DNA of 64,000 nt from the sequence record OR992645.1; one strand, given 5' to 3'. Both the position numbers and the translations under genes were made by a program. This document shows, one piece after another, positions 4,760-49,930 of the stretch; the stretch's first letter is position 1; each line of letters begins with the position of its first letter. The DNA comes from Escherichia phage EI-SP-GF. The notes beneath the pieces were generated by a model that was not told the origin of the DNA, searched no databases, and saw nothing but the letters and a program-made list of their open reading frames with translations.

Positions 4760-5767
4760 ATGATTACTCGTAAAGATGAATTTGGCATTGTTGATTTAGG
4801 TGCTACTCTGGAACTTGTTCCGCGCCAATTCCGACTGATTACTGGTATGGATCTGTTCGAAACCCGTCTCGGCACCTCAACGATTGCTCAGATCGAGCGT
4901 GTTGATGAAGTTGTAACCGACATTCCGGCACGCCGTCGTGGTGGTGAGCGTAACTACGTTGGTAGTGAACGTGCCCAGGTTAAAAACCTGAACATCCCGT
5001 TCTTCCCTCTGGACAAAGGCATCACTGCCGCAGATGTTCAGAACTTCCGTCGTTACTTCACCCCTGATGCTCCGAAAACTGTTCAGGACGTAGTAACCCG
5101 CGTTGTTCGCCGTATCCGTGTTTCTCATGAAGCACTGCGTGAGAAAGCACTGTTCCAGGCTATTCTGGGTAAATCCTATGCACCTGGTGACACCACCTGT
5201 CAGTATGACTACTACACTCTGTGGGGTGTGTCTCAGAAGTCTGTTGAGATCGACCCTGCAAAAGCAGATCAGGATCCTATGGAGGTTCTGGAAGAAGCTC
5301 GTCTGCACATCGCACTGCAAGCTGGTGATAACGCAGCTGGCTATCGTATTGTAGCTCTGTGCTCACCAGAGTTCTTCAGTGCTATTACCCATCACCCGCT
5401 GGTAGAACTGGCATACACCTATTACGGCTCTGCTCAGGAACCTCTGCGTCGCCGTCTGGGTGCTGGCGGTCAAGACAGCGTATACCGTGTGTTTGAACAT
5501 AAAGGTATCACCTTTATCGAAGATATTTCTGGCAATATTCCTAAGAAAGAGGCTCGCATCCTGCCGATGGGTATTGATCAGATGTTCCAGCTGCACTTTG
5601 CTCCGGCAGACGATGTTAACGAAGCAAACACTCCAGCACAGGAACTGTACATGTGGTACAAACACTCTGCATACCTGCGTGAAGAGAAGATTGAATCTGA
5701 AACTTCCATGCTGGCAGTTAACACCCGTCCAGAGCTGGTTGTTAAAGCAACTCTGAAAGGTGAATAA
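4760..5767 (+). CDS. major capsid protein
   Basis: 335-aa ORF after scaffold, strong RBS, strongly biased codon usage (CGT/CTG/GGT/AAA rich) typical of highly expressed genes, followed by strong terminator. Confidence 0.65.
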   Translation: MITRKDEFGIVDLGATLELVPRQFRLITGMDLFETRLGTSTIAQIERVDEVVTDIPARRRGGERNYVGSERAQVKNLNIPFFPLDKGITAADVQNFRRYFTPDAPKTVQDVVTRVVRRIRVSHEALREKALFQAILGKSYAPGDTTCQYDYYTLWGVSQKSVEIDPAKADQDPMEVLEEARLHIALQAGDNAAGYRIVALCSPEFFSAITHHPLVELAYTYYGSAQEPLRRRLGAGGQDSVYRVFEHKGITFIEDISGNIPKKEARILPMGIDQMFQLHFAPADDVNEANTPAQELYMWYKHSAYLREEKIESETSMLAVNTRPELVVKATLKGE

Positions 5768-11742: not shown

Positions 11743-14082
11743 ATGGCTACAAATAAGATAGTTGCCACAACAGTCAACAAGATTGGCTTTGAGATAGAGA
11801 ACTCCTCCTACAAAAAAGCTGTAGAGAAAATTCGCAGTATCGGGAAGGAGTTCAGGAAACTGGGCGAGGATTTTAACTCAGCCAACCCTATGAGCAGATG
11901 GCAGGCAGTGGCTGTTAAAACTCAGCAGACAATGCAACGTGTTGCCAGACAGCAATCCCAAGCAAATGCTAAACTGCACAGGGAGAGCGTTGCTCAGGCC
12001 AAGAAAGAGGCTGCAGTAAAGGCTGCAATAGAGCGCAGGGAGAATGCAAGACGTAAGCAAGCTGTAGGCAATATTACCGCCAAAAACCCAGAGATGGCTA
12101 GGATGCGTAAGTTCTACCAGCAGCAAGCTAAAGAGGCCAAAAAAGCTGCCAAATCTGCACCAGTATCCTATGGTGGTTATAAGGCACCTAAGGCAAGAGT
12201 TCTTGCTAACGCCAAGTCTTTCAGATATATCCCAGGCAACCCTAACATGGGTGGGGTGGCTTCAGATCCTAATCTTGTGAAAGCCCAGACTGCTGCCATG
12301 AACCGTTATCACAGACAGTTAAGAAGGGACAGCAAAGCTGGGATGGATAATAGGCTTATGGCAGATCGTGAGGCAAGGAGAACCCACCTCTACAACTCTG
12401 CGATAAGACTTTCTGCCAAATATGGTGCCGGATTCCGTGGTAGTCTGTCTGGATATTCGGAGTTGGAGTCCAGATTTGCTCGCGGGGAAATGAGTAAGTC
12501 AACCTTTAACGCCCACCTGTCTGCGTTGCAGTCTGGGTTTAAAAGTGCCACCAGCCAAACTCTGACCCTCGGTGATGCTATGAGGGATTTGCGTAGATCT
12601 GTAATCAACGCTACAGCTGCGTATACCGCTTTTTCTGGATTTGCTGCAGTTAACAGATCCGGTCATATGATGGAGGGGGCAAGTGCTGCTCTTACTGCTG
12701 TTACTGGAGATCCAAACAAAGCCAACAGTGAAGTTGCGTTTGTCCAGCAGGAGGCTATGCGTCTTGGTTTTGACCTCAAGTCTGGTCTTCAGGGTTATTC
12801 TCAGATGGCGGTGAACGCCAAAAATCAGATGACAAACCAAGAGGTGCATGAGCTATTCTCTGCATACTCGCAGTATGCTGCTGCTTACGGTGCCGATGAG
12901 GTAAAATACCAGCGCGGTATTATGGCAATCCAGCAAATGCTCGGTAAAGGGCAAGTAATGTCCGAAGAACTGAAGCAACAACTTGCTGAAGCATTACCTG
13001 GTGCATACGAACCTTTTATCAAAGCTACCCAAGAGGCTTTTGGTCTTGCTGAGCTCTCCATGGATCAGTTCATGGATATGATGAAAAAAGGTGAAGTTAA
13101 AACAGCCAAGATCATGAAGTATGTGGCTAAGTACATGAATGAGGCATCTGCAGCTGGTTATGAAAGAATGCAGAAGTCTAACGTACTGGCAGAAAACAGA
13201 CTGAAAACCTTTATTGAACTGTCCCGTCAGAAACTGTTCACACGTTGGGCAGATGAGCTGACAGAGTTCTACTACACCTTAATCCGCACAGGTGAGACCC
13301 TGCAATTTGTGTGGGATGCCGCTGGTGATTTTGTTAGCGGGTTTGTGAGAGGTTTGAACTGGGTTGTTGGTGAACTAAACAACACTATAGTTAAGATCCG
13401 TTTGTTTTTCCTTGAATGGGGAATTAAATGGGGTATCATAACTGCTAAGACGAAGGAATATTCCGAAGAGATACATGACACCTTTAGCATGGCTAAATGG
13501 GCAGGGTATGCTGCTGCAATCATGCTGGTAGTGAACGCCCTTACCAAAGGGTTTGTTATGGCATCCATGCTTGTAAAAACATTTAAGTTCCTCAGCAACC
13601 TGAGAGGTGCAGCTGGAGCTGCAGGTGCTGGTGCAGTAACCGCAGACGGCTCTGGAGGAGGAGCAGCCGGAAAAGGTGGTGGAGGCATTAAGACGCCTGG
13701 CGGTAAAGTTGGCATTCTTGGCAAACTAGGTATCATTGGCACAATACTGAGTGCCGGAGAACTATTTAATGACCGTTTCAACCCGCTGAGTGAAAGAAAT
13801 CAACAGCTGGATACCATCAGCGATATGATTCGTAAAGACATCATATCTGGAGGTAACGGGTTTGTTGATCCTCTAAGCACCTTGCCGGGAGGTACTCTTC
13901 CGTTACCAGGTGGTCCTGGTTTTGCTTCTCAATTAAGAACCATGGAAATGCTACCTTTAGAGATCAGTGATGGTAAAATCACGATTTCAATAGATGAGGG
14001 TGAGTTTAGCAAAATATTTGATGCAAAACTTGAGTGGGAGAACAGTAAAGATATCAACTTTATGTCCACAGACCTTTGGTAA
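11743..14082 (+). CDS. tail tape measure protein
   Basis: 779 aa, long alpha-helical N-terminal half, Gly-rich segment GAAGAAGAGAVTADGSGGGAAGKGGGG, position after chaperone pair. Confidence 0.8.
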   Translation: MATNKIVATTVNKIGFEIENSSYKKAVEKIRSIGKEFRKLGEDFNSANPMSRWQAVAVKTQQTMQRVARQQSQANAKLHRESVAQAKKEAAVKAAIERRENARRKQAVGNITAKNPEMARMRKFYQQQAKEAKKAAKSAPVSYGGYKAPKARVLANAKSFRYIPGNPNMGGVASDPNLVKAQTAAMNRYHRQLRRDSKAGMDNRLMADREARRTHLYNSAIRLSAKYGAGFRGSLSGYSELESRFARGEMSKSTFNAHLSALQSGFKSATSQTLTLGDAMRDLRRSVINATAAYTAFSGFAAVNRSGHMMEGASAALTAVTGDPNKANSEVAFVQQEAMRLGFDLKSGLQGYSQMAVNAKNQMTNQEVHELFSAYSQYAAAYGADEVKYQRGIMAIQQMLGKGQVMSEELKQQLAEALPGAYEPFIKATQEAFGLAELSMDQFMDMMKKGEVKTAKIMKYVAKYMNEASAAGYERMQKSNVLAENRLKTFIELSRQKLFTRWADELTEFYYTLIRTGETLQFVWDAAGDFVSGFVRGLNWVVGELNNTIVKIRLFFLEWGIKWGIITAKTKEYSEEIHDTFSMAKWAGYAAAIMLVVNALTKGFVMASMLVKTFKFLSNLRGAAGAAGAGAVTADGSGGGAAGKGGGGIKTPGGKVGILGKLGIIGTILSAGELFNDRFNPLSERNQQLDTISDMIRKDIISGGNGFVDPLSTLPGGTLPLPGGPGFASQLRTMEMLPLEISDGKITISIDEGEFSKIFDAKLEWENSKDINFMSTDLW

Positions 14083-26237: not shown

Positions 26238-26662
26238 TGAGCACACACCCTCGTTTAGTAGACTGGCAAGAAAGATTGTGGAAAGTGTTTGACGAAGAAG
26301 CTACCGTCCAGTTTGAATGGGGATTCCACGATTGTTGCACTTTTGCGGCTAAATGTGTTGATGCCCAATATGGAACAGATTTTCTTTCTAACTTTGAAGG
26401 AACGTATAAAACAGAGTTGGAAAGCAAGAGATGGTGCATGCTCCGTTTCAAAACCACCCACCTGCCTACTATTTTTGATCTCTTTTTGACTCGACTGGAT
26501 ACTCCTAAACAGGTTCAGCGTGGCGATATTGTTATTTTCGAAGGTCTGAACGGGCTCACCGCTGGTGTGTTCTGGAACAACCAGATTTGGGCGAAAGGTG
26601 ATAAGGGGATCTTTATGTTCGACATGAAAGATTCTATCGTTGTTGATGTCTGGAGGTATTAA
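26237..26662 (+). CDS. NlpC/P60-like tail tip protein (lambda gpK C-domain / GTA g14-like)
   Basis: EWGFHDCCTFAAKCV (Cys-containing motif) and RGDIVIFEG; catalytic His not evident; located directly upstream of J-like gene. Confidence 0.4.
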   Translation: MSTHPRLVDWQERLWKVFDEEATVQFEWGFHDCCTFAAKCVDAQYGTDFLSNFEGTYKTELESKRWCMLRFKTTHLPTIFDLFLTRLDTPKQVQRGDIVIFEGLNGLTAGVFWNNQIWAKGDKGIFMFDMKDSIVVDVWRY

Positions 26663-29600
26663 TGCCAATTGCAATGATTGATAACATCGTTGCTTCTGCA
26701 AGATCTTCGAGCTATGACTGGAACGCATCCAAGGCAGCTCTGGCTGACAGCCTGAACACTGTTACCACCAGAACCCTGGATAAGATTTTCGAAGGTAACA
26801 AATCTTACAGAAGTCAGCAAGATAGACAAAAGCTTCTCAGATCTTCTGCTGCACCTTGCTCTGTAGTGTATGGGAAGACACGCACATCTGGATTGCTTGC
26901 GTTTTTGGAGCAGGACAGGGACAGAACCCTTCATTGTGCTATTGTTCTTGCCAATCATCCCTTGGAAGGTATAGAAGATATACTTATCGACGGTAATCCT
27001 ATTTCCTCGTATGGGGATTTGGTATCGTGGGAGTTACATAACGACAGGAAAACCTCTGATCCTTTCATGGGTACACACTGCCCTTCGTGGTCACCAGACA
27101 TGATAGGTAGAGGGATCAGTTGGCTACGTGCCAGCTTTAAGTTTGACCCTAACAAGTTTCCTTTTGGGTTGCCAAACGTTACACTCGTCAAGGTTGGTAA
27201 AAAATGTTATGATCCTCGTATCAGTAAAGAGGTGTATACCAATAACGCTGCCTTGGTGATTCTGGACTACCTAAGAACGTACCTTAAATGTCCTGACGAA
27301 ACCATCAACTGGGAGTCCTTCAAGGAAGCTGCCAACATATGCGATGAGGCTGTAAAAAACGCGGACGGAACCAGTGAGCGCCGTTACACCATTAATGGCG
27401 AGTTCGACATGGATGAAGCACCAGCAAGCATTATGGCAGAGATGCTGAAAGCTTGTGGTGCAGACCTTAGCTATGTAGCTGGCAAATATGGTCTGCTGGT
27501 AGGTGCATACTATGGCCCGGCAACAATGACACTTAGCGAGAACTGTGTTTGCGGTGAGGTTAAGATCTATCCTGAAGCCTCCTTCGACAAAAGATCCAAC
27601 ACAATAACTGGCAGATTCACTAGTCCGGCCAAAGGGTATTCTGAAACAGATTTTCCATCAGTGTTTGTCCCAGAGTGGGTAGAGAAGGATGGAGAAAGAA
27701 AGATAATCGATATAGATTATCGCTTTGTTACCAGTCCTTATCAAGCTCAGCGTGTTTCTGCAATCTTCTTAAGACGTGCCAGAGCTGGTAGGATTATTGA
27801 AGTAACCTGCAATATGCGGGGTTTTAAATTTAAGCCTGGGCGTTACGTTACGATGGACCTCCCAAGTATTGGTATAGTGGGCCAAGAAATGAGGGTTCTT
27901 GAATGGGAGTTCACCAAAAAGGGCGGTGTCAAGGTAAAACTCCGTCAAGATGCTAAAGAGTGGAATGATGCCACAGGGCAACTTCCGGATTCTGGAGATG
28001 TGGATATTCCGATATCCCCGTCCGGCGTAGCTCAACCGCAAAACTTCAGATACTCTGTTCTTCAAGCTGGGGAAGTAACTCATGGTGTTTTGGCTTGGGA
28101 CAACGTTGGAACTTATGCTCAAAATATTGTGCAGGTAAGAAAGAACGGAGAGATTATTTGGACAGCACAGACAGTTGAGCAGTTTGTCCGCGTAGAAGGA
28201 TTGACCAAAGGGTCATACACAGCAACCGTGGTTGCAACATCTTATAAAGGTGGTGTATCTCCAGAAGCTTACTGCGAGTTTAACATTCAAGCACCTGAAG
28301 CTCCTGTTTCTGTAGAAGTTAAGCAGGGATACTTTGCTATCACCTTGATTCCGCACAGCAGGGACTTAGCAAGTGTAAGCACCCAGTATGATTTTTGGAC
28401 ATCTGGTATGACAAGGTTGCCGGACACAAGTGATGCAACCGTTACTTCAAAAGCCACCCGTATGGGTGTTGGTTCAACTTGGACATCTGAAGGTCTGCAG
28501 AACGATAAGATTTATTATTGGTATATTCGAACCACAAACGCTTTTGGTAGTTCTCAGTTTGTAGAATGCGCTGCACGCTGCTACACCTCTATTGAAGATT
28601 TGATGCCTCAGATAGATGCTGAATTTAAAAAGACAGAAACTTATAAAGAGTTGATGAGCACTTTAGATTCCTCTATCGAGGAGGTTGAAAATCGTGTCAC
28701 AGAGCTTAACAAGTACATGGACGGAAGGGTAGATGAGGCATTCCAACAACTTGGAGATAGGATAGGTGCGGTAGTTGCAGAGACAACTCAGAAGTTTGAG
28801 GATGTCAATGGTAATATCACAGCTCTGGATAGGAAACTTGTTGCTGCACAGAACAAGTTCACCAACGATCTGAACACTGAAAGTGGAAGACTGGCATCCC
28901 TGATCGAGACAACCAATAAAGCAACCACTGATCTTCTGAACAAAAAGACAGAGGCTTTAGACGAGAAATTGGTTGCAGCCAAAGGGGAGTTGGTAGAACA
29001 AATAAGTGGTGTGGAGAGCGGATACCTTGCCGGAGATAAAACTCTAGATGGCAAGATCAATACCCAGAGAACGGAACTTGATGCAAGCATCTTAAGCACC
29101 AACCAGGCGACAGTGGATCTTCTCAACAGGACATCTGAAACTTTGGATCAAAAGATCAGTCAGACAAACGCGACGGTATCTAAGAACTATACCACCCTTG
29201 ATGGTAAGATAACTACCGCAAAAACTGATCTCAATACCTTGATTGCCAATACCAACAAGGCCACCACAGATTTGTTGAATCAGAAAACCTCTGCACTGTC
29301 GGAGCAGATAACTTCTGCACGTGGAGAAATTTCTACCAACAAACAGGCGATTAAGGATTTGGATGGTAAGCTGACCTCCACAAAAACAGCACTGGACGCT
29401 ACAATCTCCGATACCAACAAAGCAACCGTGGATCTTATTAACGGCACAGCGTCAGCTATTCGTCAAGAACTTGCTGTTGCTAAGCAGGAGATCATTGATG
29501 ATGTCGGTGATGTGTCAGAGCTTAGAGCTGCAGTAGCTACAACATCTAAGGCTGTGACAGACTTAGAGGGCAAAGTAACTGCTCAATGGGGCACAAAAAT

Positions 29601-30501
29601 ACAGGTAGACTCCGCAGGGAATAAGTATGTGGCAGGTATCCAATTGGGCATGGAAGGCTCTGGAGGCCAAGTTCAATCATACTTCATGGTTAGTGCAAAC
29701 AACTTTGCGGTATACAACCCCGGAAATGGAACAGCAACCCTTGCTTTCGCAATCAAGAACAACCAAGCATTCTTGAAAGATGCTTTTATAGAGAACGGGA
29801 CGATCTCTTCTGCCAAGATTGCACAAGAAATTTCGTCTAACAACTACGATGGCAACGGGTACCATAAATACGGTTGGTATATTAACAAGAACGGACACGC
29901 CCAGTTTATGGATGTGTGGGTGAAAGGTAACATCAACGCTAGTGCAGGTAACTTCACAGGGGCAGTTAACGCTACCAGTGGCACTTTCCGTGGGGATGTT
30001 TATGCCAATAATGGTAGCTTTAGAGGCACCATAGATGCAACAGGAGGTACATTCCGTGGACGTGTAGAAGCTTCCGTTATCCGTGCTAACCAGTTCGAAG
30101 GTGCAATCGTTGCACATAGGACCTATGGTGACTGTCCTCCGGTATATAACTCGCAGCAGAGGGTTTGCCGTTGGAGGTGGAGATATGTGGACAACGTTTC
30201 AGGGCAAGGTAAGAACGTAACATTCTTCTTTAAACTAAACGGAACCTTGTCTGGCTCCCAGCTCAACGTTTGGATAGCCGGACATCAAATCCTTGCAGGT
30301 AAGAAGTACGGAAACGACAACAACGGCATGTGTGCGGTAGGGATAACTGGTCTCGGTGAACAAACCATAGACATTATCGTCGAGATATACACACCATGGT
30401 CAACGTCAAGCGTGACAGGAGTTACAATATCTTGTCCAACCGTAATAGTTAGTCGTTCAAACTCTAGCTTCCAGGGACCTTGGAACGAGTCTCATGACTA
30501 A
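26662..30501 (+). CDS. lambda gpJ-like host specificity / central tail fibre protein
   Basis: 1279 aa; FN3-region motifs PEAPVSVEVKQGYFAITLIPH...FW...YYWYIRTTNAFGSSQFVE and VQSYFMVSANNFAVYNPGNG...NNQAFLKDAFI closely parallel lambda J ([21 protein letters not shown]...YYFYIRSVNTVGKSAFVE; LSQFLVAANRIAFIDPANG). Confidence 0.8.
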   Translation: MPIAMIDNIVASARSSSYDWNASKAALADSLNTVTTRTLDKIFEGNKSYRSQQDRQKLLRSSAAPCSVVYGKTRTSGLLAFLEQDRDRTLHCAIVLANHPLEGIEDILIDGNPISSYGDLVSWELHNDRKTSDPFMGTHCPSWSPDMIGRGISWLRASFKFDPNKFPFGLPNVTLVKVGKKCYDPRISKEVYTNNAALVILDYLRTYLKCPDETINWESFKEAANICDEAVKNADGTSERRYTINGEFDMDEAPASIMAEMLKACGADLSYVAGKYGLLVGAYYGPATMTLSENCVCGEVKIYPEASFDKRSNTITGRFTSPAKGYSETDFPSVFVPEWVEKDGERKIIDIDYRFVTSPYQAQRVSAIFLRRARAGRIIEVTCNMRGFKFKPGRYVTMDLPSIGIVGQEMRVLEWEFTKKGGVKVKLRQDAKEWNDATGQLPDSGDVDIPISPSGVAQPQNFRYSVLQAGEVTHGVLAWDNVGTYAQNIVQVRKNGEIIWTAQTVEQFVRVEGLTKGSYTATVVATSYKGGVSPEAYCEFNIQAPEAPVSVEVKQGYFAITLIPHSRDLASVSTQYDFWTSGMTRLPDTSDATVTSKATRMGVGSTWTSEGLQNDKIYYWYIRTTNAFGSSQFVECAARCYTSIEDLMPQIDAEFKKTETYKELMSTLDSSIEEVENRVTELNKYMDGRVDEAFQQLGDRIGAVVAETTQKFEDVNGNITALDRKLVAAQNKFTNDLNTESGRLASLIETTNKATTDLLNKKTEALDEKLVAAKGELVEQISGVESGYLAGDKTLDGKINTQRTELDASILSTNQATVDLLNRTSETLDQKISQTNATVSKNYTTLDGKITTAKTDLNTLIANTNKATTDLLNQKTSALSEQITSARGEISTNKQAIKDLDGKLTSTKTALDATISDTNKATVDLINGTASAIRQELAVAKQEIIDDVGDVSELRAAVATTSKAVTDLEGKVTAQWGTKIQVDSAGNKYVAGIQLGMEGSGGQVQSYFMVSANNFAVYNPGNGTATLAFAIKNNQAFLKDAFIENGTISSAKIAQEISSNNYDGNGYHKYGWYINKNGHAQFMDVWVKGNINASAGNFTGAVNATSGTFRGDVYANNGSFRGTIDATGGTFRGRVEASVIRANQFEGAIVAHRTYGDCPPVYNSQQRVCRWRWRYVDNVSGQGKNVTFFFKLNGTLSGSQLNVWIAGHQILAGKKYGNDNNGMCAVGITGLGEQTIDIIVEIYTPWSTSSVTGVTISCPTVIVSRSNSSFQGPWNESHD
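28860..29480 (+). repeat. in-frame tandem repeat region encoding repeated T-x-NKATTDLLN-x-KT/ TLDGKI coiled-coil units inside the J-like gene
   Basis: protein segments TNKATTDLLNKKTEALDEK / TNQATVDLLNRTSETLDQK / TNKATTDLLNQKTSALSEQ / TNKATVDLINGTASAIRQE recur about every 40 aa. Confidence 0.5.
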
Positions 30502-40009: not shown

Positions 40010-40018
40010 TATATCTGA

Positions 40019-40043
40019 CCGCTCCTGACGGGGCGGTTTTCTT
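40019..40043 (+). terminator. rho-independent terminator
   Basis: ccgctcc-tgac-ggggcgg followed by ttttctt. Confidence 0.65.
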
Positions 40044-40057
40044 ATCTGGAGAACACA

Positions 40058-40834
40058 ATGCTTCCAATCCCTTTGCTAAAACTTGGTCGTCATTTCCTCG
40101 ATAAGAGGGGTGGAGTTAAGGAACTTGCTGTTCTGTCATACCCAATAGACAACAGTGACGGTACAAGCACTACAGTAGCCTATGTAAATAGCTTAGCTAT
40201 ACTTTTTGACGATGGTCAGCTTAATATTACTGGCTATAACAAGTTCGGGGAGTGTCGCACTGGGGATCGTAACCCTATAAACTACCCGAGCGAGACGGCC
40301 TGGAATGTTGATCATGTGTGGAGAGCAGACCGTGCGTTTGTGATCCGGACTTTTGATAACCAGTTTTTCTACATCGGCTGCACTGCAGGTCTTATCGGAT
40401 CCACTGCGGCAGGTGGTAACGATGTTTGCGTAAACGAGTGGACACCTCTTCCGGAACAGATTGTTAAAGGATTGCACCTTGACACCCACCCAGAGCGCCT
40501 TATTGAGGTAATGGGAGGTATTAACAACACTGTCTGGGTTATTGCAGAGGCAGAAGGTACTGGCATACTGAACCTGTATGGGTCTGGTAACAACACCTAC
40601 GGATCTTTACATGTAGATAAAAACCAGCATGCAACTCCTGTAAAGATTGGTGAAACATCAGAAAATCCTGAAACAGGCCCTTGGAAAAACCCAAGTATCA
40701 ACTGCGAGGTGCATGACAACTCTGTTATTTTCGGTGGGCCTAGAGGTTTTTGGATTGCTGGATACGACTTTCTGAGAAACAACAGTAGAAACGACCTTGT
40801 TTGGCCCCTGCTCAGATTACTCGCAACGATTTGA
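40058..40834 (+). CDS. RCC1-like beta-propeller repeat protein (possible N-terminal part of the following giant protein)
   Basis: 258 aa with GxNxxGxLG-like repeats (YGSGNNTYGSLHVD); ORF ends inside the start region of the 1626-aa ORF in another frame. Confidence 0.5.
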   Translation: MLPIPLLKLGRHFLDKRGGVKELAVLSYPIDNSDGTSTTVAYVNSLAILFDDGQLNITGYNKFGECRTGDRNPINYPSETAWNVDHVWRADRAFVIRTFDNQFFYIGCTAGLIGSTAAGGNDVCVNEWTPLPEQIVKGLHLDTHPERLIEVMGGINNTVWVIAEAEGTGILNLYGSGNNTYGSLHVDKNQHATPVKIGETSENPETGPWKNPSINCEVHDNSVIFGGPRGFWIAGYDFLRNNSRNDLVWPLLRLLATI

Positions 40835-40869
40835 AAGGCATTCCTGCAGATGAGGAGTGGAAAGGATTC

Positions 40870-43800
40870 ATGTGTGGTCCGAACGGGGCGATAATTGCAA
40901 CGCAGAGGATGCACAAGCCTAATGATCAGCAACTTGTTAACGTATTCTACGGGCAAGATGTCTGGGGAGATGATACATGGCGTTCCTTAAATATTACCTA
41001 CACCCATGAAGTAATAATGGCTCGTGGGTACGGAACAAGTGGCATTTTCTTCAATAATGGTACTAAGCAGTATCGCGGATTCTCTCGCAACCTGTGCAAC
41101 GATATTGGAGCACAATCTGCAAACAATAATCCTCGCGCCAATTTTATCCATTATCAAGCTCTTGCTACAGCCAAGTATGTTGAGCAACGACTGCCAGTTA
41201 GCTGGACAGAGAGTGTTTACTTCCAGGGTATTCATAGAGAAGGTTTTTTAGGGACCTTTACCGTTGTTAATGGCAAACTTTGGTGGTCAGGCATCCCAAG
41301 GGGAAGTTTTGCAGGATCTAATAACCTGTTTGGCGGCAGACTTAACAGCCAGGGGTTCACAGAGGTTCCTGAGAATTGGTATAAAAATGTCCCAGTAGAT
41401 AGTTGGGATATTGATGATATTTTTGACGTTAACGGTGTTAGCAGTGTTAGCAATATTTACATCGGTGACACGGTCAAGATGAAATTGAAGCCTCAACCAG
41501 AGGGGGCCACGTTCATTATTGACAAGATTGAACTGGTAAATGCTGCAGGCACGGTTGTTACAGATGCAAATTACCAATTCTCCACCAACTGGAACCACGG
41601 CGGGGCCAACGAGGTTGTTGTTACTCAGTATAACAGAAATGTTAACAGACGCGGTCTGTACTCTGTAAAAATAACCTATCATGACAAGCATGGCACGGGC
41701 AGAACTCACACAACAAGGACTTTGAACTGGAACACTATAGTTCCTGCGTATCCGTCTGATGGTAAATGGCACACTGTAGGCAGAAACAAACAGTTCCATG
41801 TTAACGATACTGTGTACTTTGGGCTTAACGCTGCTCAGCCAGCTCCAGAAAGCGATACAGCGTATATGGTTCGGCTGCACAGGCAAGATGCTGGGTCTGT
41901 TACCTACGATGTGACCCAAGAGATCTACAATCAGAGACGCTCCACGTATGACAATATTGTGAAAACACAAGCCTTGTGGGAGTTCAACCCTAACGGCAAA
42001 GGTGGTAAAATGTTGCAGGTTAACGAGCAAAACGGAACATCGTTAACTGTCCACGAACACCCAGACCCTTGGCCTGACCCTGGTAAACCTAACTCAGGTG
42101 CTCGCACACTGCAAGTTGTCAGTCATGATGTAGGCTATTTTGGGATACGTTGGGAGGCCACAGTAAAATATGCCGATGGGACAACAAACAACATAGGGAT
42201 TACGCTTGGTGGCACTAGTGAGAGTAACTCGCTGAAAATTGCCTACACTCCTAGAGGTATCTCTATTGACAACATGGATATAGTCCGTAACGGTTACGGA
42301 GATGTAAACATCAAAGTTACTCTTGGTGAGCATCTTGGCGGAGAAAGGATCATTATGTATGCCTTTGATCATGACCCTCGAACCAACGGAACTTATGCAA
42401 ATCAGGCCTGGAGTTACCTGATAAGTGCACCTGAGCCGAATACTAAAGAATTCTACTACGGTATGAAGCGAGATGTGTGCAAGAAAACAGGAACACACGA
42501 CTGGATTGCTATCTGTGTTAAAGATGAGAGAACAGCTTGGGATGAGCCTGTTAACCGCTGGTTCATAGGTATTCCCACCAGAAGTGATAAATACGTTGAA
42601 GAATATATTGTATGTATGGGCGGCACCAACCTCAACATGTGTTGGAACGAGGACGCAAACAAATATTCTGATTATGACTATATGAGGGACTACTCTTGTA
42701 ATCAATGGTTCAACCAATCCGGGTATGCTAATAGACAGTCAAGGGTAAACCCTGCAATCTTCACAGATACGCAGGTTTTCTTGACAAAACAGGCCAACGA
42801 GGTTCAGACCTTCAAGAACAACTATGATCCTAACAAGTGGTTCTACAACTGTTCCGGAGCAATATTCTGGGGGCCTGGTGAACTGCCTGATAGTGGTTCT
42901 TGCTTCGAGGCTGCAACCTATGGCAGTGACTATATTATGGGGCAGGTCAAGAAGTACAAGATGATTCCAGGACCTGAAACTTTAGGTAATGCTGTTGACC
43001 CGTACATAAATTTCGCAGCTATACATGCTAATATGGATGGAGAGAGATATCCGTTTGTTGTTCCGTTAACTTGGGGGTACAAACGTGTCGTGATGATTAT
43101 TAAATGCGATCTGATCGGGAAGCAAGTTCTTGCAGAAAATGGAACATCCACACACCCTTTTGAAGTTGCTCTGCACTACCAGTTTGCAGACTCACCATAT
43201 GCAGGGGATAAAAGAATATCCGACACAGACTCTAAGCGCTGTAAGAAAGTTTTACTTGGAGCCGGGTGGTGGTGGTACGAGTTTGATTTGACAGATAAGT
43301 TCACAGATGATACCAAAACTCTCACAGGTATCCGTCTGGACCTTGGTGAGAACATGCATAAAAGTGTTTGTGATGGTACCTACGGTGACCCTACGGTATA
43401 TCTAAAGTATGTTTCTCTTGAGCATCGCGAAGAGGATGTTTACGGTCCAAAACTGAGATTGTTTGGCGCATGGATTGCCAAAGACAGAGTAGGTATGGGT
43501 AAGAAGGTGAGAGGCTTCTTGATAGATGTAGGGACAGAGGACATGCTGGTTAATGCAGTATGGCCTGAATTACCCGGAACTCAGTGGAACAACTCTGCCA
43601 AATCTATAAACTGGTACAATATTCACAGAGCTATGTGGACCACTAACTGCTACTTGTGGAGAGAGCTTAACGATCAGGCCTTTGGCTTTAGTAACGGCAG
43701 AAGGATGGCGATCATTTGCTGGACAACATTGCAAAGATGTTATGACCATGACTATGAGATTGGTGGTAGGGCATGGAAAGATATCAGGGACAGAGTTATA

Positions 43801-45681
43801 TACAATTTTGCAGACGATAATGGTGGCGGGGCATATAACTTTGGCACAAGCCGACTTATCCATTTGAACGGATCCTCAGCCTACAAGAAAGAGGGTTACT
43901 CTGGGTCTATGATTGAGTGGGGTCTGGTGAAAGATGCTCGCGTATTGATGGGTCAACAACTTGCTGCTGCAATAGGACCTAGCGCAGTGCAGTCGGTTAA
44001 ACCAGCGTGGTTCGATATCCCAATATGGTCATCTGGAACACCAGGAACTGCGGCAATTAACCCTACCACCGGAGATTTGGAAATCTCTTGGGAGGACTTA
44101 AAGCAGGTCGGTGGCTGGGATAAGACTGGGTACCAGGTGCAATGGTGGAGATCTGACGGATCGTTAGCGGCTGATGAGTTTGTTAAGGACAATTTCTACA
44201 CCATGTCCTCTGCAAAAGCACAACAATTGTTTGGTCAGGCCACCCCGTCAACGATCACTATGTCCATGTGCTGTAAAGACAACAGGACGGGAGCTCTGGG
44301 ACCAAGGGTTGCTAAAGTTTTCTCAGGTATTAAATGGAATCTCCCTGTTCAAAGTGTTTCATGGAAGCAAATAGGTGATAACAAGCTGCTGGTTACTCCT
44401 GCCTGTCAGTTCAACGCAACTCTTAACGTTGATCCTGCTGTTGCGGCAAACTCAGCTAAAGCTTCTGACTTCTCTGTGTCTAACACTGCTATGGCAGATG
44501 TGAGGAAGATTGACACACTGAACGCCAGAATTACCTGTAAAAACACTTATGGCACATTCCAGATCATCAACAACTTCACAGATGCTGATTCTAAGGTAGT
44601 AAGGACAGCAAGCCAGACTATGCAGTTGGGCACTCTGGCATACTCTGCCCTGATCACTGAACAATCTCCTACTCTTCAGGGTGGGGGTGTTGGTAAGTTG
44701 ATCACAACACCTGTGTGGAAGCCAAATGAGTGGGTTGTGTTTGATTTGACTGTAGACTTCTCCAGTGACAATAACTGGACATGGGTAAGGAATTGCTTGC
44801 CACAGTTGATGGGCGGTCCAAATTCCGTTAGTGATAGCCACGACTCTACCGATCCGAGCGTGTTCCAGGTGGGGAAAACTCACCCAGAGACTGGGGAAAC
44901 GTTGCCTGACAGGAAGTATGCTTTAGTTTGCATCTCCAACGGCAAGGCAGATATAACCTTCTCGGGGATACACTCGTATAACGGCACTTACAACTTCTCT
45001 AAAAAGTACAGCCTCAAGGCAGGTAACATTATAGACGAAGTTGGTCCGTTATATAACCCAGGTAACGGTATTGGGATTGTAACTGGTATTCTTCCTATGC
45101 AGGAGCCTTCTATAACCCCAGCCAACGTGCCTGGTATCAGAAAAACTTGGGAAAGTAGCAATACCAATATTGCAACAGTGGATGCTACCACAGGACTGGT
45201 AACATTTAAGGCTACCGGGAATGTCACCATAAGGTTTGTAGTTACAGATGATGCAGGCCGCAAAACGTCTTCAACATCGTTTACTGTCAAACAGATGGCA
45301 CCTCAGTGGTTTATTTGGGAAGGAAATCCTCTTGACGGGGCTTACCCTAGACCTGCAGGAACGTCTAATATGAGGGTCTTTACCGGTCCAGTCATGGACA
45401 ATCCAACCACAACCACCAACCCTGCATTTTTTGGTGCTTACATACCTGAAATTATTGGCCTACCAAGGAACCAAATACAATTGCTTTTCGGGGCAGGCGT
45501 TGATGGTCTAGCCACTTTCGGGTACAGTGACAACATTGATGCAGCCAGAAGCTCGGGTTGGATTGGATTTAAGTTCCAGTGGAACCCTGGTGGTAGAACA
45601 TTAGGTCTTGCAAGTGTAGGTGTTATGCTGCCTGGCAACCAGCAATACCATCTCGAAGCTTATACAAACTTCCCTAGTTAA
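40870..45681 (+). CDS. giant virion-associated protein with propeller-like repeats and C-terminal Ig-like (BIG2-like) domain
   Basis: frame open from 40789; track start is TTG 40801 without RBS, first ATG 40870; BIG2-like segment NVPGIRKTWESSNTNIATVDATTGLVTFKATGNVTIRFVVTDDAGRKT near C-terminus. Confidence 0.6.
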   Translation: MCGPNGAIIATQRMHKPNDQQLVNVFYGQDVWGDDTWRSLNITYTHEVIMARGYGTSGIFFNNGTKQYRGFSRNLCNDIGAQSANNNPRANFIHYQALATAKYVEQRLPVSWTESVYFQGIHREGFLGTFTVVNGKLWWSGIPRGSFAGSNNLFGGRLNSQGFTEVPENWYKNVPVDSWDIDDIFDVNGVSSVSNIYIGDTVKMKLKPQPEGATFIIDKIELVNAAGTVVTDANYQFSTNWNHGGANEVVVTQYNRNVNRRGLYSVKITYHDKHGTGRTHTTRTLNWNTIVPAYPSDGKWHTVGRNKQFHVNDTVYFGLNAAQPAPESDTAYMVRLHRQDAGSVTYDVTQEIYNQRRSTYDNIVKTQALWEFNPNGKGGKMLQVNEQNGTSLTVHEHPDPWPDPGKPNSGARTLQVVSHDVGYFGIRWEATVKYADGTTNNIGITLGGTSESNSLKIAYTPRGISIDNMDIVRNGYGDVNIKVTLGEHLGGERIIMYAFDHDPRTNGTYANQAWSYLISAPEPNTKEFYYGMKRDVCKKTGTHDWIAICVKDERTAWDEPVNRWFIGIPTRSDKYVEEYIVCMGGTNLNMCWNEDANKYSDYDYMRDYSCNQWFNQSGYANRQSRVNPAIFTDTQVFLTKQANEVQTFKNNYDPNKWFYNCSGAIFWGPGELPDSGSCFEAATYGSDYIMGQVKKYKMIPGPETLGNAVDPYINFAAIHANMDGERYPFVVPLTWGYKRVVMIIKCDLIGKQVLAENGTSTHPFEVALHYQFADSPYAGDKRISDTDSKRCKKVLLGAGWWWYEFDLTDKFTDDTKTLTGIRLDLGENMHKSVCDGTYGDPTVYLKYVSLEHREEDVYGPKLRLFGAWIAKDRVGMGKKVRGFLIDVGTEDMLVNAVWPELPGTQWNNSAKSINWYNIHRAMWTTNCYLWRELNDQAFGFSNGRRMAIICWTTLQRCYDHDYEIGGRAWKDIRDRVIYNFADDNGGGAYNFGTSRLIHLNGSSAYKKEGYSGSMIEWGLVKDARVLMGQQLAAAIGPSAVQSVKPAWFDIPIWSSGTPGTAAINPTTGDLEISWEDLKQVGGWDKTGYQVQWWRSDGSLAADEFVKDNFYTMSSAKAQQLFGQATPSTITMSMCCKDNRTGALGPRVAKVFSGIKWNLPVQSVSWKQIGDNKLLVTPACQFNATLNVDPAVAANSAKASDFSVSNTAMADVRKIDTLNARITCKNTYGTFQIINNFTDADSKVVRTASQTMQLGTLAYSALITEQSPTLQGGGVGKLITTPVWKPNEWVVFDLTVDFSSDNNWTWVRNCLPQLMGGPNSVSDSHDSTDPSVFQVGKTHPETGETLPDRKYALVCISNGKADITFSGIHSYNGTYNFSKKYSLKAGNIIDEVGPLYNPGNGIGIVTGILPMQEPSITPANVPGIRKTWESSNTNIATVDATTGLVTFKATGNVTIRFVVTDDAGRKTSSTSFTVKQMAPQWFIWEGNPLDGAYPRPAGTSNMRVFTGPVMDNPTTTTNPAFFGAYIPEIIGLPRNQIQLLFGAGVDGLATFGYSDNIDAARSSGWIGFKFQWNPGGRTLGLASVGVMLPGNQQYHLEAYTNFPS

Positions 45682-45690
45682 CAGGAGACA

Positions 45691-45724
45691 AATAAAAAGG
45701 GGCCAAACGGCCCCTTTCTTTTTA
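45691..45724. terminator. bidirectional rho-independent terminator between convergent blocks
   Basis: A-tract aataaaaa, ggggcc-aaac-ggcccc hairpin, T-tract tttcttttta. Confidence 0.75.
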
Positions 45725-49664: not shown

Positions 49665-49930
49665 TACTCTTCCTCCATAGTTTCACCAAATACTTCGATA
49701 CGAGCGTCAAGCTCTGTTGCTTTCAGCTCCCCGACAAAATCTTTCAGTTCTTTCTCGTCAAGATCGTATGCCCACACACAAGATGAGCATGCAGATTTCA
49801 CGATTAGCAGTGTAGATACACGGCCTGACTCTGTAATCATGCTCACAATGGTTCCTACAGGGAACGTGTTGATAGCTTTTTTAACTGGGCGTTCAGCTTT
49901 AATTACTACCTCTGTTGCCATAAATACCAT
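49664..49930 (-). CDS. hypothetical protein
   Basis: 88-aa ORF. Confidence 0.45.
   Translation of the reverse strand: MVFMATEVVIKAERPVKKAINTFPVGTIVSMITESGRVSTLLIVKSACSSCVWAYDLDEKELKDFVGELKATELDARIEVFGETMEEE

What the first reader, a model, noticed from the sequence alone, without database searches (positions are those of the whole stretch)
40058..45681. Possible frameshift joining a 258-aa propeller protein to a 1626-aa giant protein
The 258-aa ORF (frame 2) stops at 40834 inside the opening of the 1626-aa ORF (frame 1, open from 40789). The giant ORF has only a TTG start without RBS at 40801, or an ATG at 40870. RCC1-like propeller repeats appear on both sides of the junction (YGSGNNTYGSLHVD upstream; GSNNLFGGRLNSQG downstream). 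This suggests a single roughly 1880-aa protein interrupted by a -1 frame change, whether programmed, mutational or a sequencing error. No canonical slippery heptamer is visible in 40789-40834.
Basis: partly seen in the sequence, partly recalled or inferred. Interest (0 to 1): 0.6.

Follow-up and report, generated by a model that had tools for sequence, protein, structure and literature searches.

The report
Tail-fibre gene split by one-base deletion
The two open reading frames are the halves of one known giant lateral tail-fibre gene of an rV5-like E. coli phage, broken by the loss of a single C in a run of Cs. This is an ordinary knock-out mutation or a sequencing slip, not programmed frameshifting.

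Summary
A 258-codon ORF (40058-40834, frame 2) overlaps a 1626-codon ORF (frame 1, open from 40789, ending 45681). Together they are one gene, the orthologue of rV5 gp27 / BASEL bas54_0041, annotated "lateral tail fiber protein with intimin domain". Most Vequintavirus relatives carry it as an uninterrupted CDS of about 1875 codons. The break is a single-base deletion in a C tract: the window has GGCCCCTG at 40805-40808, and the closest allele (ECP26) has GGCCCCCTG. Adding one C restores a 1874-aa ORF that is 94.4% identical end to end to Phage 203. Every relative examined keeps the extra base. There is no slippery heptamer and no unusual downstream RNA structure, so programmed frameshifting is rejected. 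About 70 other genes in the window are intact. The same gene is broken by other lesions at other sites in 11 of 96 listed GenBank relatives, and a transposon screen found its orthologue dispensable on E. coli K-12. I therefore favour a genuine recent loss-of-function mutation (about 0.6) over a consensus sequencing error (about 0.33); only read data can decide. RCC1-like repeats downstream of the junction could not be demonstrated. Low novelty.

The parts
40017..40038 (+). Terminator-like hairpin followed by a T-run, between the preceding 581-aa tail-fibre gene and the giant gene
   Evidence: 9-bp stem, 6 GC pairs. Phage Alma annotates a terminator at the equivalent place.
40048..40051 (+). 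Shine-Dalgarno GGAG, 6 nt upstream of the ATG at 40058
   Evidence: Read directly from the sequence.
40058..40834 (+). 5' fragment of the giant lateral tail-fibre gene: native residues 1-250, then 8 out-of-frame residues (LLRLLATI), then a premature TGA
   Evidence: Matches phrog_15684 positions 1-252. tblastn of the repaired protein aligns residues 1-254 in frame 2.
40187..40654 (+). Weak RCC1-like region (residues 44-199)
   Evidence: Pfam PF25390 E=3.4e-5, 23.8 bits against a cutoff of 150. phrog_4219 E=1.9e-8 and phrog_11922 'tail protein' E=6e-24.
40805..40808 (+). C4 tract, the site of the one-base deletion. ECP26 and FV3 have C5 here; most other relatives have CCTCC.
   Evidence: The 68-nt junction segment of ECP26 is identical to the window except for the extra C.
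40807..45681 (+). 3' remainder of the same gene in frame 1: codons 251-1874 plus the stop
   Evidence: 100% self-match in frame 1 from 40807. phrog_15684 positions 251-1877. dN/dS 0.045-0.057 against five relatives over gene nt 751-2598.
40870..40872 (+). In-frame ATG (Met272 of the intact protein), 35 nt after the premature stop. It is a possible but fortuitous re-initiation site that would give a 1603-aa N-terminally truncated product.
   Evidence: Sequence. That it is used is inference only.
45142..45252 (+). Bacterial Ig-like (Big_2, intimin-like) domain
   Evidence: Pfam PF02368 E=1.2e-6, 28.8 bits against a cutoff of 22.8. Weak PDB intimin matches at the corresponding place in the Phage 203 orthologue, E=0.004-0.008.
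45694..45719 (.). Bidirectional terminator-like hairpin between the giant gene and the convergent 66-aa gene
   Evidence: hairpins on both strands.

Best explanation
The window comes from a Vequintavirus, an rV5-like E. coli myophage. Positions 40058-45681 are a single gene, the orthologue of rV5 gp27 / bas54_0041. It encodes a giant lateral tail fibre of about 1875 aa with a C-terminal intimin-like Ig domain. One C has been lost from a C5 tract, most plausibly by replication slippage. Translation from ATG 40058 therefore leaves the native frame after Pro250, reads 8 wrong codons and stops at 40832-40834. The product keeps only the first 13% of the protein. The remaining 1624 codons would be translated, if at all, only by fortuitous re-initiation (for example at ATG 40870), giving a protein without its N-terminal 271 residues. 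The expected result is a virion lacking this one of several lateral fibre sets. Such a virion should still be viable on hosts that do not need the fibre. Shown: the orthology, the exact lesion, its uniqueness to this window, and the absence of frameshift signals. Inferred: that the deletion exists in the phage DNA rather than only in the assembly, and that the fibre is lost.
For: One gene: phrog_15684 is covered contiguously by the two ORFs. A single CDS of 5628-5637 nt occupies the same syntenic slot in Phage 203, EduardKellenberger, FV3, ECP32, BP9, MaxBurger and JeffSchatz. Lesion: the alignments show one missing base in the C tract. Inserting one C gives 1874 aa with no internal stop and 94.4% identity to Phage 203 over residues 1-1874. 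All 60 listed relatives span one base more than the 401-nt query, and all 19 junction segments extracted are 68 nt against 67 in the window. Recent event: dN/dS is 0.04-0.09 on both sides of the junction in the repaired frame, measured over gene nt 1-2598, and the downstream 1624 codons carry no further lesion. Not programmed: no slippery heptamer and RNA fold z=-0.15. Genuine mutation is plausible. All roughly 70 other genes of the window align full length in one frame with EduardKellenberger proteins, although the window holds 220 homopolymer runs of 5 or more. The orthologue bas54_0041 tolerates transposon insertions on E. coli K-12 (bioRxiv 10.1101/2025.11.20.689424; orthology checked). 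The gene is independently broken in 11 of 96 listed GenBank relatives and in one SRA-derived contig, 12 further broken copies in all. Eight of these copies carry lesions that sequencing errors rarely produce: five copies with nonsense codons (at four sites, since ECP26 and magaca share Y617amber) and three with deletions of 2, 10 and 11 nt.
Against: A one-base deletion in a homopolymer is also the classic consensus error of 454, Ion Torrent and nanopore assemblies. No reads, no second copy of this genome and no exact protein match could be found. The total absence of secondary decay fits an artefact as well as a very recent mutation. Frameshift-like breaks in deposited genomes are not significantly rarer in essential controls. 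The tape measure gene shows 1 in 58 and the 689-aa fibre gene 0 in 28, against 7 in 96 for this gene and 5 in 58 for another dispensable fibre gene.
Confidence: 0.6

Rival explanations
1. Sequencing or assembly error: the phage really has C5 and an intact 1874-aa gene, and the consensus dropped one C.
For: The lesion is a 1-nt deletion in a homopolymer. It is unique to this sequence. The rest of the gene is perfectly intact and under purifying selection. Two-piece (frameshift-like) breaks also occur in other genes of deposited Vequintavirus genomes, including the essential tape measure gene of V18.
Against: The tract is short (4-5 nt). No other gene of about 70 in 64 kb is frame-broken, although the window has 882 runs of 4 or more and 220 of 5 or more, so the assembly is not error-prone at homopolymers. 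The one hit falls in a gene that is dispensable and often genuinely mutated.
Confidence: 0.33
2. Recoding: programmed -1 ribosomal frameshifting or transcriptional slippage at the C tract produces the full-length fibre from the two frames.
For: A ribosome slipping -1 at CCC (40805-40807) would recreate exactly the ancestral ...VWPPAQ... sequence. The 43-nt overlap 40789-40831 would permit it.
Against: There is no X XXY YYZ heptamer in the overlap. The P-site slip from CCC to GCC pairs poorly (inference). No downstream structure stands out from shuffles (z=-0.15). C4 is too short for efficient transcriptional slippage (general knowledge). The arrangement is not conserved, since every relative has the in-frame version.
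Confidence: 0.02
3. The split gene still works, or switches on and off. Either the N-terminal fragment and a re-initiated C-terminal fragment assemble non-covalently, or the short tract reverts at a useful rate as a phase-variation-like switch for this fibre.
For: An in-frame ATG lies 35 nt after the premature stop. Independent 1-nt indels in homonucleotide runs of 2-7 nt occur in the same gene in Alma, YP-6, naswa and DrSchubert. Some Bas54 lateral fibre genes are conditionally essential on particular hosts.
Against: The tract is only 4-5 nt and is CCTCC in most relatives, so it is not a conserved contingency tract. The other breaks are scattered and include nonsense codons and 10-11-nt deletions, which are not reversible switches. 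ATG 40870 has a poor Shine-Dalgarno context. There is no evidence of complementation.
Confidence: 0.05

Closest known systems
rV5 gp27 / BASEL bas54_0041, bas59_0040 ('lateral tail fiber protein with intimin domain'); PHROG 15684
   Same: Same gene. It has full-length collinear homology (92-94% aa identity to the three relatives compared end to end). It sits in the same position after the 581-aa fibre gene and before a convergent 66-aa gene. It has the same Big_2/intimin-like domain.
   Different: In the window it is interrupted by a 1-nt deletion after codon 250. In most relatives it is one ORF.
Lambda PaPa stf frameshift (orf401/orf314), and frameshifts in stf selected during plaque growth
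   Same: A side or lateral tail-fibre gene is split into two ORFs by an indel, in a phage that remains viable. Gallet et al. 2009 (PMC2762979) found stf mutated in 19 of 21 isolates. Fifteen were frameshifts, and nearly all of those lay in short homonucleotide runs. This is the same class of lesion as here. The same paper cites Hendrix and Duda 1992 for the lambda PaPa mutation.
   Different: Different phage family and an unrelated protein. Here neither the fibre-less phenotype nor any selective advantage has been shown, and the lesion itself is not confirmed by reads.
Programmed -1 frameshift in dsDNA phage tail genes (lambda gpG/gpGT type)
   Same: Two overlapping ORFs in a tail gene cluster, related by a -1 frame change.
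   Different: Those have a conserved slippery heptamer, and the two-frame layout is conserved across relatives (general knowledge). Here both features were tested and not met.
Other broken copies of the same gene in deposited Vequintavirus genomes (ECP26, magaca, nomine, phita32, naswa, ime, Alma, YP-6, EPFV3-03/2025, ECO111 5-P, DrSchubert)
   Same: The orthologous gene is split or truncated. Alma breaks only 125 nt upstream of the window's break.
   Different: Every lesion is at a different site or of a different type from the window's, so they are independent events rather than a shared feature.

Membership tests
rV5 gp27-like giant lateral tail fibre (PHROG 15684) | End-to-end collinear homology to the family profile or to orthologues | tested here: met
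   Profile positions 1-252 and 251-1877 are covered by the two ORFs. The repaired protein aligns over residues 1-1874 at 94.4% identity to Phage 203.
rV5 gp27-like giant lateral tail fibre (PHROG 15684) | Conserved position at the end of the tail-fibre cluster | tested here: met
   The neighbours are the same as in Phage 203, EduardKellenberger and FV3.
rV5 gp27-like giant lateral tail fibre (PHROG 15684) | Single uninterrupted ORF of about 1875 codons | tested here: not met
   The window has two ORFs in different frames. The feature is met only after inserting one C. This is a disrupted allele of the family.
rV5 gp27-like giant lateral tail fibre (PHROG 15684) | C-terminal Big_2 / intimin-like Ig domain | tested here: met
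   PF02368 at 28.8 bits, above its 22.8 cutoff. Weak intimin PDB matches in the Phage 203 orthologue.
Programmed -1 ribosomal frameshift site | Slippery heptamer X XXY YYZ in the overlap | tested here: not met
   The frame-2 codons AAC GAC CTT GTT TGG CCC CTG CTC AGA TTA CTC GCA ACG ATT contain none.
Programmed -1 ribosomal frameshift site | Stimulatory downstream RNA structure | tested here: not met
   Folding 40796-40920 gives -34.9 kcal/mol against a shuffle mean of -34.3 (z=-0.15).
Programmed -1 ribosomal frameshift site | Two-frame arrangement conserved in relatives | tested here: not met
   All 60 listed relatives and all 19 extracted junctions carry the in-frame version.
Homopolymer contingency (phase-variable) locus | Long tract (roughly 8 nt or more, from general knowledge) conserved among relatives, with ON and OFF lengths segregating | tested here: not met
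   The tract is C4 here, C5 in ECP26 and FV3, and CCTCC in most others. Only the window is OFF at this tract.
Loss-of-function indel in a dispensable side or lateral tail fibre (lambda stf type) | Indel in a short homonucleotide run relative to intact relatives | tested here: met
   C5 to C4. Same lesion class as in PMC2762979.
Loss-of-function indel in a dispensable side or lateral tail fibre (lambda stf type) | The fibre is dispensable for growth on laboratory hosts | not testable with these tools
   Literature evidence exists only for the orthologue bas54_0041 (orthology checked). It was not tested for this phage.
Loss-of-function indel in a dispensable side or lateral tail fibre (lambda stf type) | The lesion is present in the phage DNA and the fibre is absent from virions | not testable with these tools
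   No reads and no proteomics are available. The exact protein and the junction sequence are absent from the public collections searched.
RCC1-like seven-bladed beta-propeller | Repeats reaching family thresholds across the whole N-terminal 450 residues, on both sides of the junction | tested here: inconclusive
   Upstream there are only sub-threshold hits. Downstream there are none. Comparing the two halves by hhalign gives E=0.34. Blade HMMs score no better than shuffles. AlphaFold2 single-sequence models have pLDDT 32 and 40 and are unusable.

The most novel reading that the evidence does not exclude
The deletion is genuine and is one instance of a recurrent, selected switching-off of the gp27-like giant lateral fibre in Vequintaviruses. 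About one in nine deposited genomes carries an independent knock-out. Slippage at short homonucleotide runs would act as a crude and occasionally reversible switch, trading host range against diffusion and adsorption cost, as shown for lambda Stf in plaques.
Probability: 0.1. Interest if true: 0.45.

Novelty: already known. Interest (0 to 1): 0.18.

Why it matters
For annotation, the two ORFs should be recorded as one disrupted (pseudo)gene, or corrected after checking the reads. They should not be listed as a 'propeller protein' plus a separate giant protein, and not as a recoding site. For biology, if the deletion is real this phage probably lacks one of its lateral fibre sets, which could narrow its host range. 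That matters if the phage is considered for typing or therapy. The side observation that this gene is broken in 11 of 96 listed relatives suggests that isolation and propagation on permissive laboratory hosts erode the fibre repertoire of rV5-like phages. The survey controls do not prove this.

Tried and rejected
1. Structure test of the propeller. Single-sequence AlphaFold2 models of the 258-aa ORF and of P0003, a 254-aa junction-spanning fragment, gave pLDDT 40 and 32 and are useless. No fold search was attempted.

2. Sequence tests for repeats on both sides of the junction. I ran Pfam on the repaired N-terminus, a PDB profile search, an hhalign comparison of the two halves (E=0.34), blade HMMs against shuffles, and phmmer of residues 253-474 against 1.84 billion representatives, which found only one family member. 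All were negative or uninformative.

3. Finding the same genome or independent reads. An exact look-up of the 258-aa protein and junction k-mers in IMG/VR, metagenome and GTDB contigs found nothing. The search for homologous proteins returned only three fragments. One of them led to another broken copy in SRA run ERR5729294.

4. Error versus mutation by survey. I compared two-piece tblastn matches in this gene with those in another dispensable fibre gene and in two genes taken as essential controls. The trend favours real mutations but is not significant: about 1 event observed against about 2.6-3.3 expected.

5. Programmed frameshift and phase variation were both considered and rejected on comparative grounds.

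6. Literature search. No paper in the library reports recurrent truncation of this gene.
Full report
**Observation**

- A 258-codon ORF runs from ATG 40058 to TGA 40832-40834 in frame 2. It has a GGAG Shine-Dalgarno sequence 6 nt upstream.
- Frame 1 has its last stop at 40786-40788. It is then open for 1630 codons to the stop at 45679-45681.
- The first candidate starts in frame 1 are TTG 40801, which has no Shine-Dalgarno sequence, and ATG 40870.
- The two frames overlap over 40789-40831. The 14 frame-2 codons from 40790 to 40831 contain no X XXY YYZ heptamer.

**What the locus is**

The window is a Vequintavirus, an rV5-like E. coli myophage. Its first 25 kb is up to 95.9% identical to phage ECP32. 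The 6-kb region matches 123 phage records at 80-95% identity.

The 1878-position profile phrog_15684 is matched at positions 1-252 by the 258-aa ORF (E=9e-169) and at positions 251-1877 by the 1626-aa ORF. The two ORFs are therefore contiguous pieces of one family member.

In Phage 203, EduardKellenberger, FV3, ECP32, BP9, MaxBurger and JeffSchatz, the same syntenic slot holds one CDS of 5628-5637 nt. The BASEL authors annotate it 'lateral tail fiber protein with intimin domain'. [quoted passage not shown] The slot lies after the 581-aa fibre gene and before a convergent 66-aa gene.

Pfam finds a Big_2 Ig-like domain near the C-terminus. The PDB sequence search, run on the Phage 203 orthologue, finds only weak intimin matches at the corresponding place.

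**The lesion**

A DNA alignment of the junction shows that the window lacks exactly one base. It has GGCCCCTG where FV3 has GGCCCCCTG and Phage 203 and EduardKellenberger have GGCCTCCTG.
- The closest allele at the junction is ECP26, 98.5% identical over 401 nt. Its 68-nt junction segment is identical to the window's except for a fifth C.
- All 19 junction segments I extracted are 68 nt long, against 67 in the window.
- All 60 relatives listed for the 401-nt query span one base more than the query.
- Inserting one C after 40808 gives an ORF of 1874 codons with no internal stop. It aligns in a single frame over residues 1-1874 to Phage 203 at 94.4% identity, and over residues 1-1872 or 1-1874 to the other Vequintavirus relatives compared, except phage naswa, which carries its own frameshift.
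- As the sequence stands, translation leaves the native frame after Pro250, adds LLRLLATI and stops.

**Not programmed**

Four results argue against recoding.
- There is no slippery heptamer in the overlap.
- The 125 nt from the tract onward fold no better than shuffled sequence (z=-0.15).
- A C4 tract is too short for efficient transcriptional slippage (general knowledge).
- The two-frame layout is absent from every relative examined.

A conserved recoding signal would be conserved, and this one is unique to the window. I put recoding at about 2%.

**Age of the lesion**

In the repaired frame, dN/dS against five relatives is 0.04-0.09 upstream of the junction and 0.045-0.057 downstream, measured over gene nt 751-2598. 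The 1624 downstream codons carry no second lesion. Both halves evolved as one coding sequence until very recently. The deletion is therefore either very young or not real.

**Mutation or sequencing error**

This cannot be settled without reads. I found no second copy of this genome, of the exact protein, or of the junction sequence in any collection. The indirect evidence is as follows.
- I compared 71 annotated EduardKellenberger proteins with the window. Every other gene present in the window aligns full length in a single frame without stops. Only the giant gene is split.
- The window contains 882 homopolymer runs of 4 or more and 220 of 5 or more. The assembly is therefore not generally error-prone at homopolymers.
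- The gene is experimentally dispensable. In the HIDEN-SEQ transposon screen of Bas54, bas54_0041 'tolerated disruptive insertions' on E. coli K-12 (bioRxiv 10.1101/2025.11.20.689424). I verified that bas54_0041 is MaxBurger's orthologue of this gene.
- The gene is broken independently in many relatives. Two tblastn rankings together list 96 GenBank records, and 11 of them carry a disrupted copy.

The lesions in those relatives, and in one further contig, are listed below.

| Genome | Lesion |
|---|---|
| Alma | 1-nt deletion at nt 625 |
| YP-6 | T6 to T7 at nt 1192 |
| naswa | G4 to G3 at nt 2284 |
| DrSchubert | T6 to T5 at nt 5374 |
| ime | 2-nt deletion |
| EPFV3-03/2025 | 10-nt deletion |
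| ECO111 5-P | 11-nt deletion |
| ECP26 and magaca | Y617 to TAG |
| nomine | W82 to TAG |
| phita32 | Q1439 to TAA |
| Contig assembled from SRA run ERR5729294 | W232 to TAG |

Nonsense substitutions and deletions of 2, 10 and 11 nt are unlikely to be consensus errors. Genuine inactivation of this gene is therefore common.

Two points cut the other way. A 1-nt homopolymer deletion is the textbook consensus error. The survey controls are also not decisive.
- Another dispensable fibre gene (1279 aa) shows 5 two-piece matches among 58 full-length rows.
- The tape measure gene shows 1 in 58 (phage V18). The 689-aa deacetylase fibre gene shows 0 in 28 Vequintavirus rows.
- This trend favours real mutations but is not statistically significant.

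I estimate about 0.6 for a genuine mutation and about 0.33 for an error.

**Mechanism and consequence (inference)**

Slippage at the C5 tract removed one C. The C5 tract is itself a derived state, because most relatives have CCTCC at this place. The phage then makes a 258-aa fragment and probably little or none of the remaining 1624 residues.

ATG 40870 (Met272) lies 35 nt after the premature stop and could allow some re-initiation, but its Shine-Dalgarno context is poor. Any such product would lack the N-terminal 271 residues. The virion would lack this fibre set while keeping the others encoded at 18555-40006. Growth on K-12-like hosts should be unaffected, and host range may be narrower on particular strains.

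The closest precedent is lambda. The laboratory strain PaPa carries a mutation in stf, a gene originally read as two ORFs, orf401 and orf314. Plaque growth selects stf frameshifts, nearly all of them in short homonucleotide runs (PMC2762979).

**The propeller claim**

Residues 44-199 give weak RCC1-like matches: PF25390 at 23.8 bits against a cutoff of 150, and phrog_4219 at E=1.9e-8. By eye, seven motifs resembling 'G-x-N-x-x-G' blades can be laid out, four before and three after residue 250. None of the tests supports this statistically.
- Pfam and PDB searches find nothing in the downstream half.
- An hhalign comparison of the two halves gives E=0.34.
- Blade HMMs score no better than shuffles.
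- An exhaustive phmmer search with residues 253-474 finds only one family member.

The idea remains plausible but untested. It is not needed for the main conclusion.

**Verdict**

The feature is a disrupted allele of a known, annotated tail-fibre gene, so its novelty is low. The only mildly interesting by-product is that 11 of 96 listed Vequintavirus records carry independent knock-outs of this same gene. I found no paper in the library that reports this.

Noticed in passing
Related loci L004, L013, L018-L022, L025-L029 (orthologues of window 40058-45681): The giant fibre gene is independently disrupted in 11 of 96 listed GenBank Vequintavirus records and in one SRA-derived contig. Lesions comprise nonsense codons in five copies (four of them amber), five 1-nt indels in short runs, and deletions of 2, 10 and 11 nt. 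No paper in the library mentions this.
   Followed up: partly
L004 (ECP26) and L018 (magaca), codon 617 of the gene: Two phages from Korea and Denmark carry the same Tyr617-to-TAG amber codon, with differing flanking synonymous sites. This could be recurrent mutation or an allele spread by recombination.
   Followed up: no
L025 (Logan contig from SRA run ERR5729294), positions 1277-1279: An uncurated assembly holds a copy of the gene with W232 changed to TAG. It carries the common CCTCC sequence at the place where the window has C4.
   Followed up: partly
GenBank MG0656xx records: Fifteen to twenty-one records named 'Campylobacter phage', with host given as Campylobacter jejuni, are 87-95% identical to rV5-like coliphages across the structural region. 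The host label looks doubtful.
   Followed up: no
window 26662-30498 orthologues; window 11743-14076 orthologue in V18: Two-piece (frameshift-like) matches also occur in the 1279-aa FN3 fibre gene of ECO111 5-P, Campylobacter phages D# and D1, bov22_2 and Alma, and in the tape measure gene of V18. Some deposited genomes carry several frame breaks.
   Followed up: partly
window 40058-42655: The gene is mosaic. Its first 900 nt are 94-99.7% identical to ECP26, identity falls to 84-90% further on, and over the whole gene Phage 203 is the closest relative.
   Followed up: partly
window 49667-49921: EduardKellenberger has three tandem 87-aa paralogues here (bas59_0051-0053). Two of them (bas59_0052 and bas59_0053) map only at about 40% identity to a single window ORF, so paralogue copy number or content differs.
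   Followed up: no
window 40017-40038 and 45694-45719: Terminator-like hairpins sit immediately before and after the giant gene, the second one bidirectional. The gene may be a transcription unit of its own or may depend on read-through.
   Followed up: no
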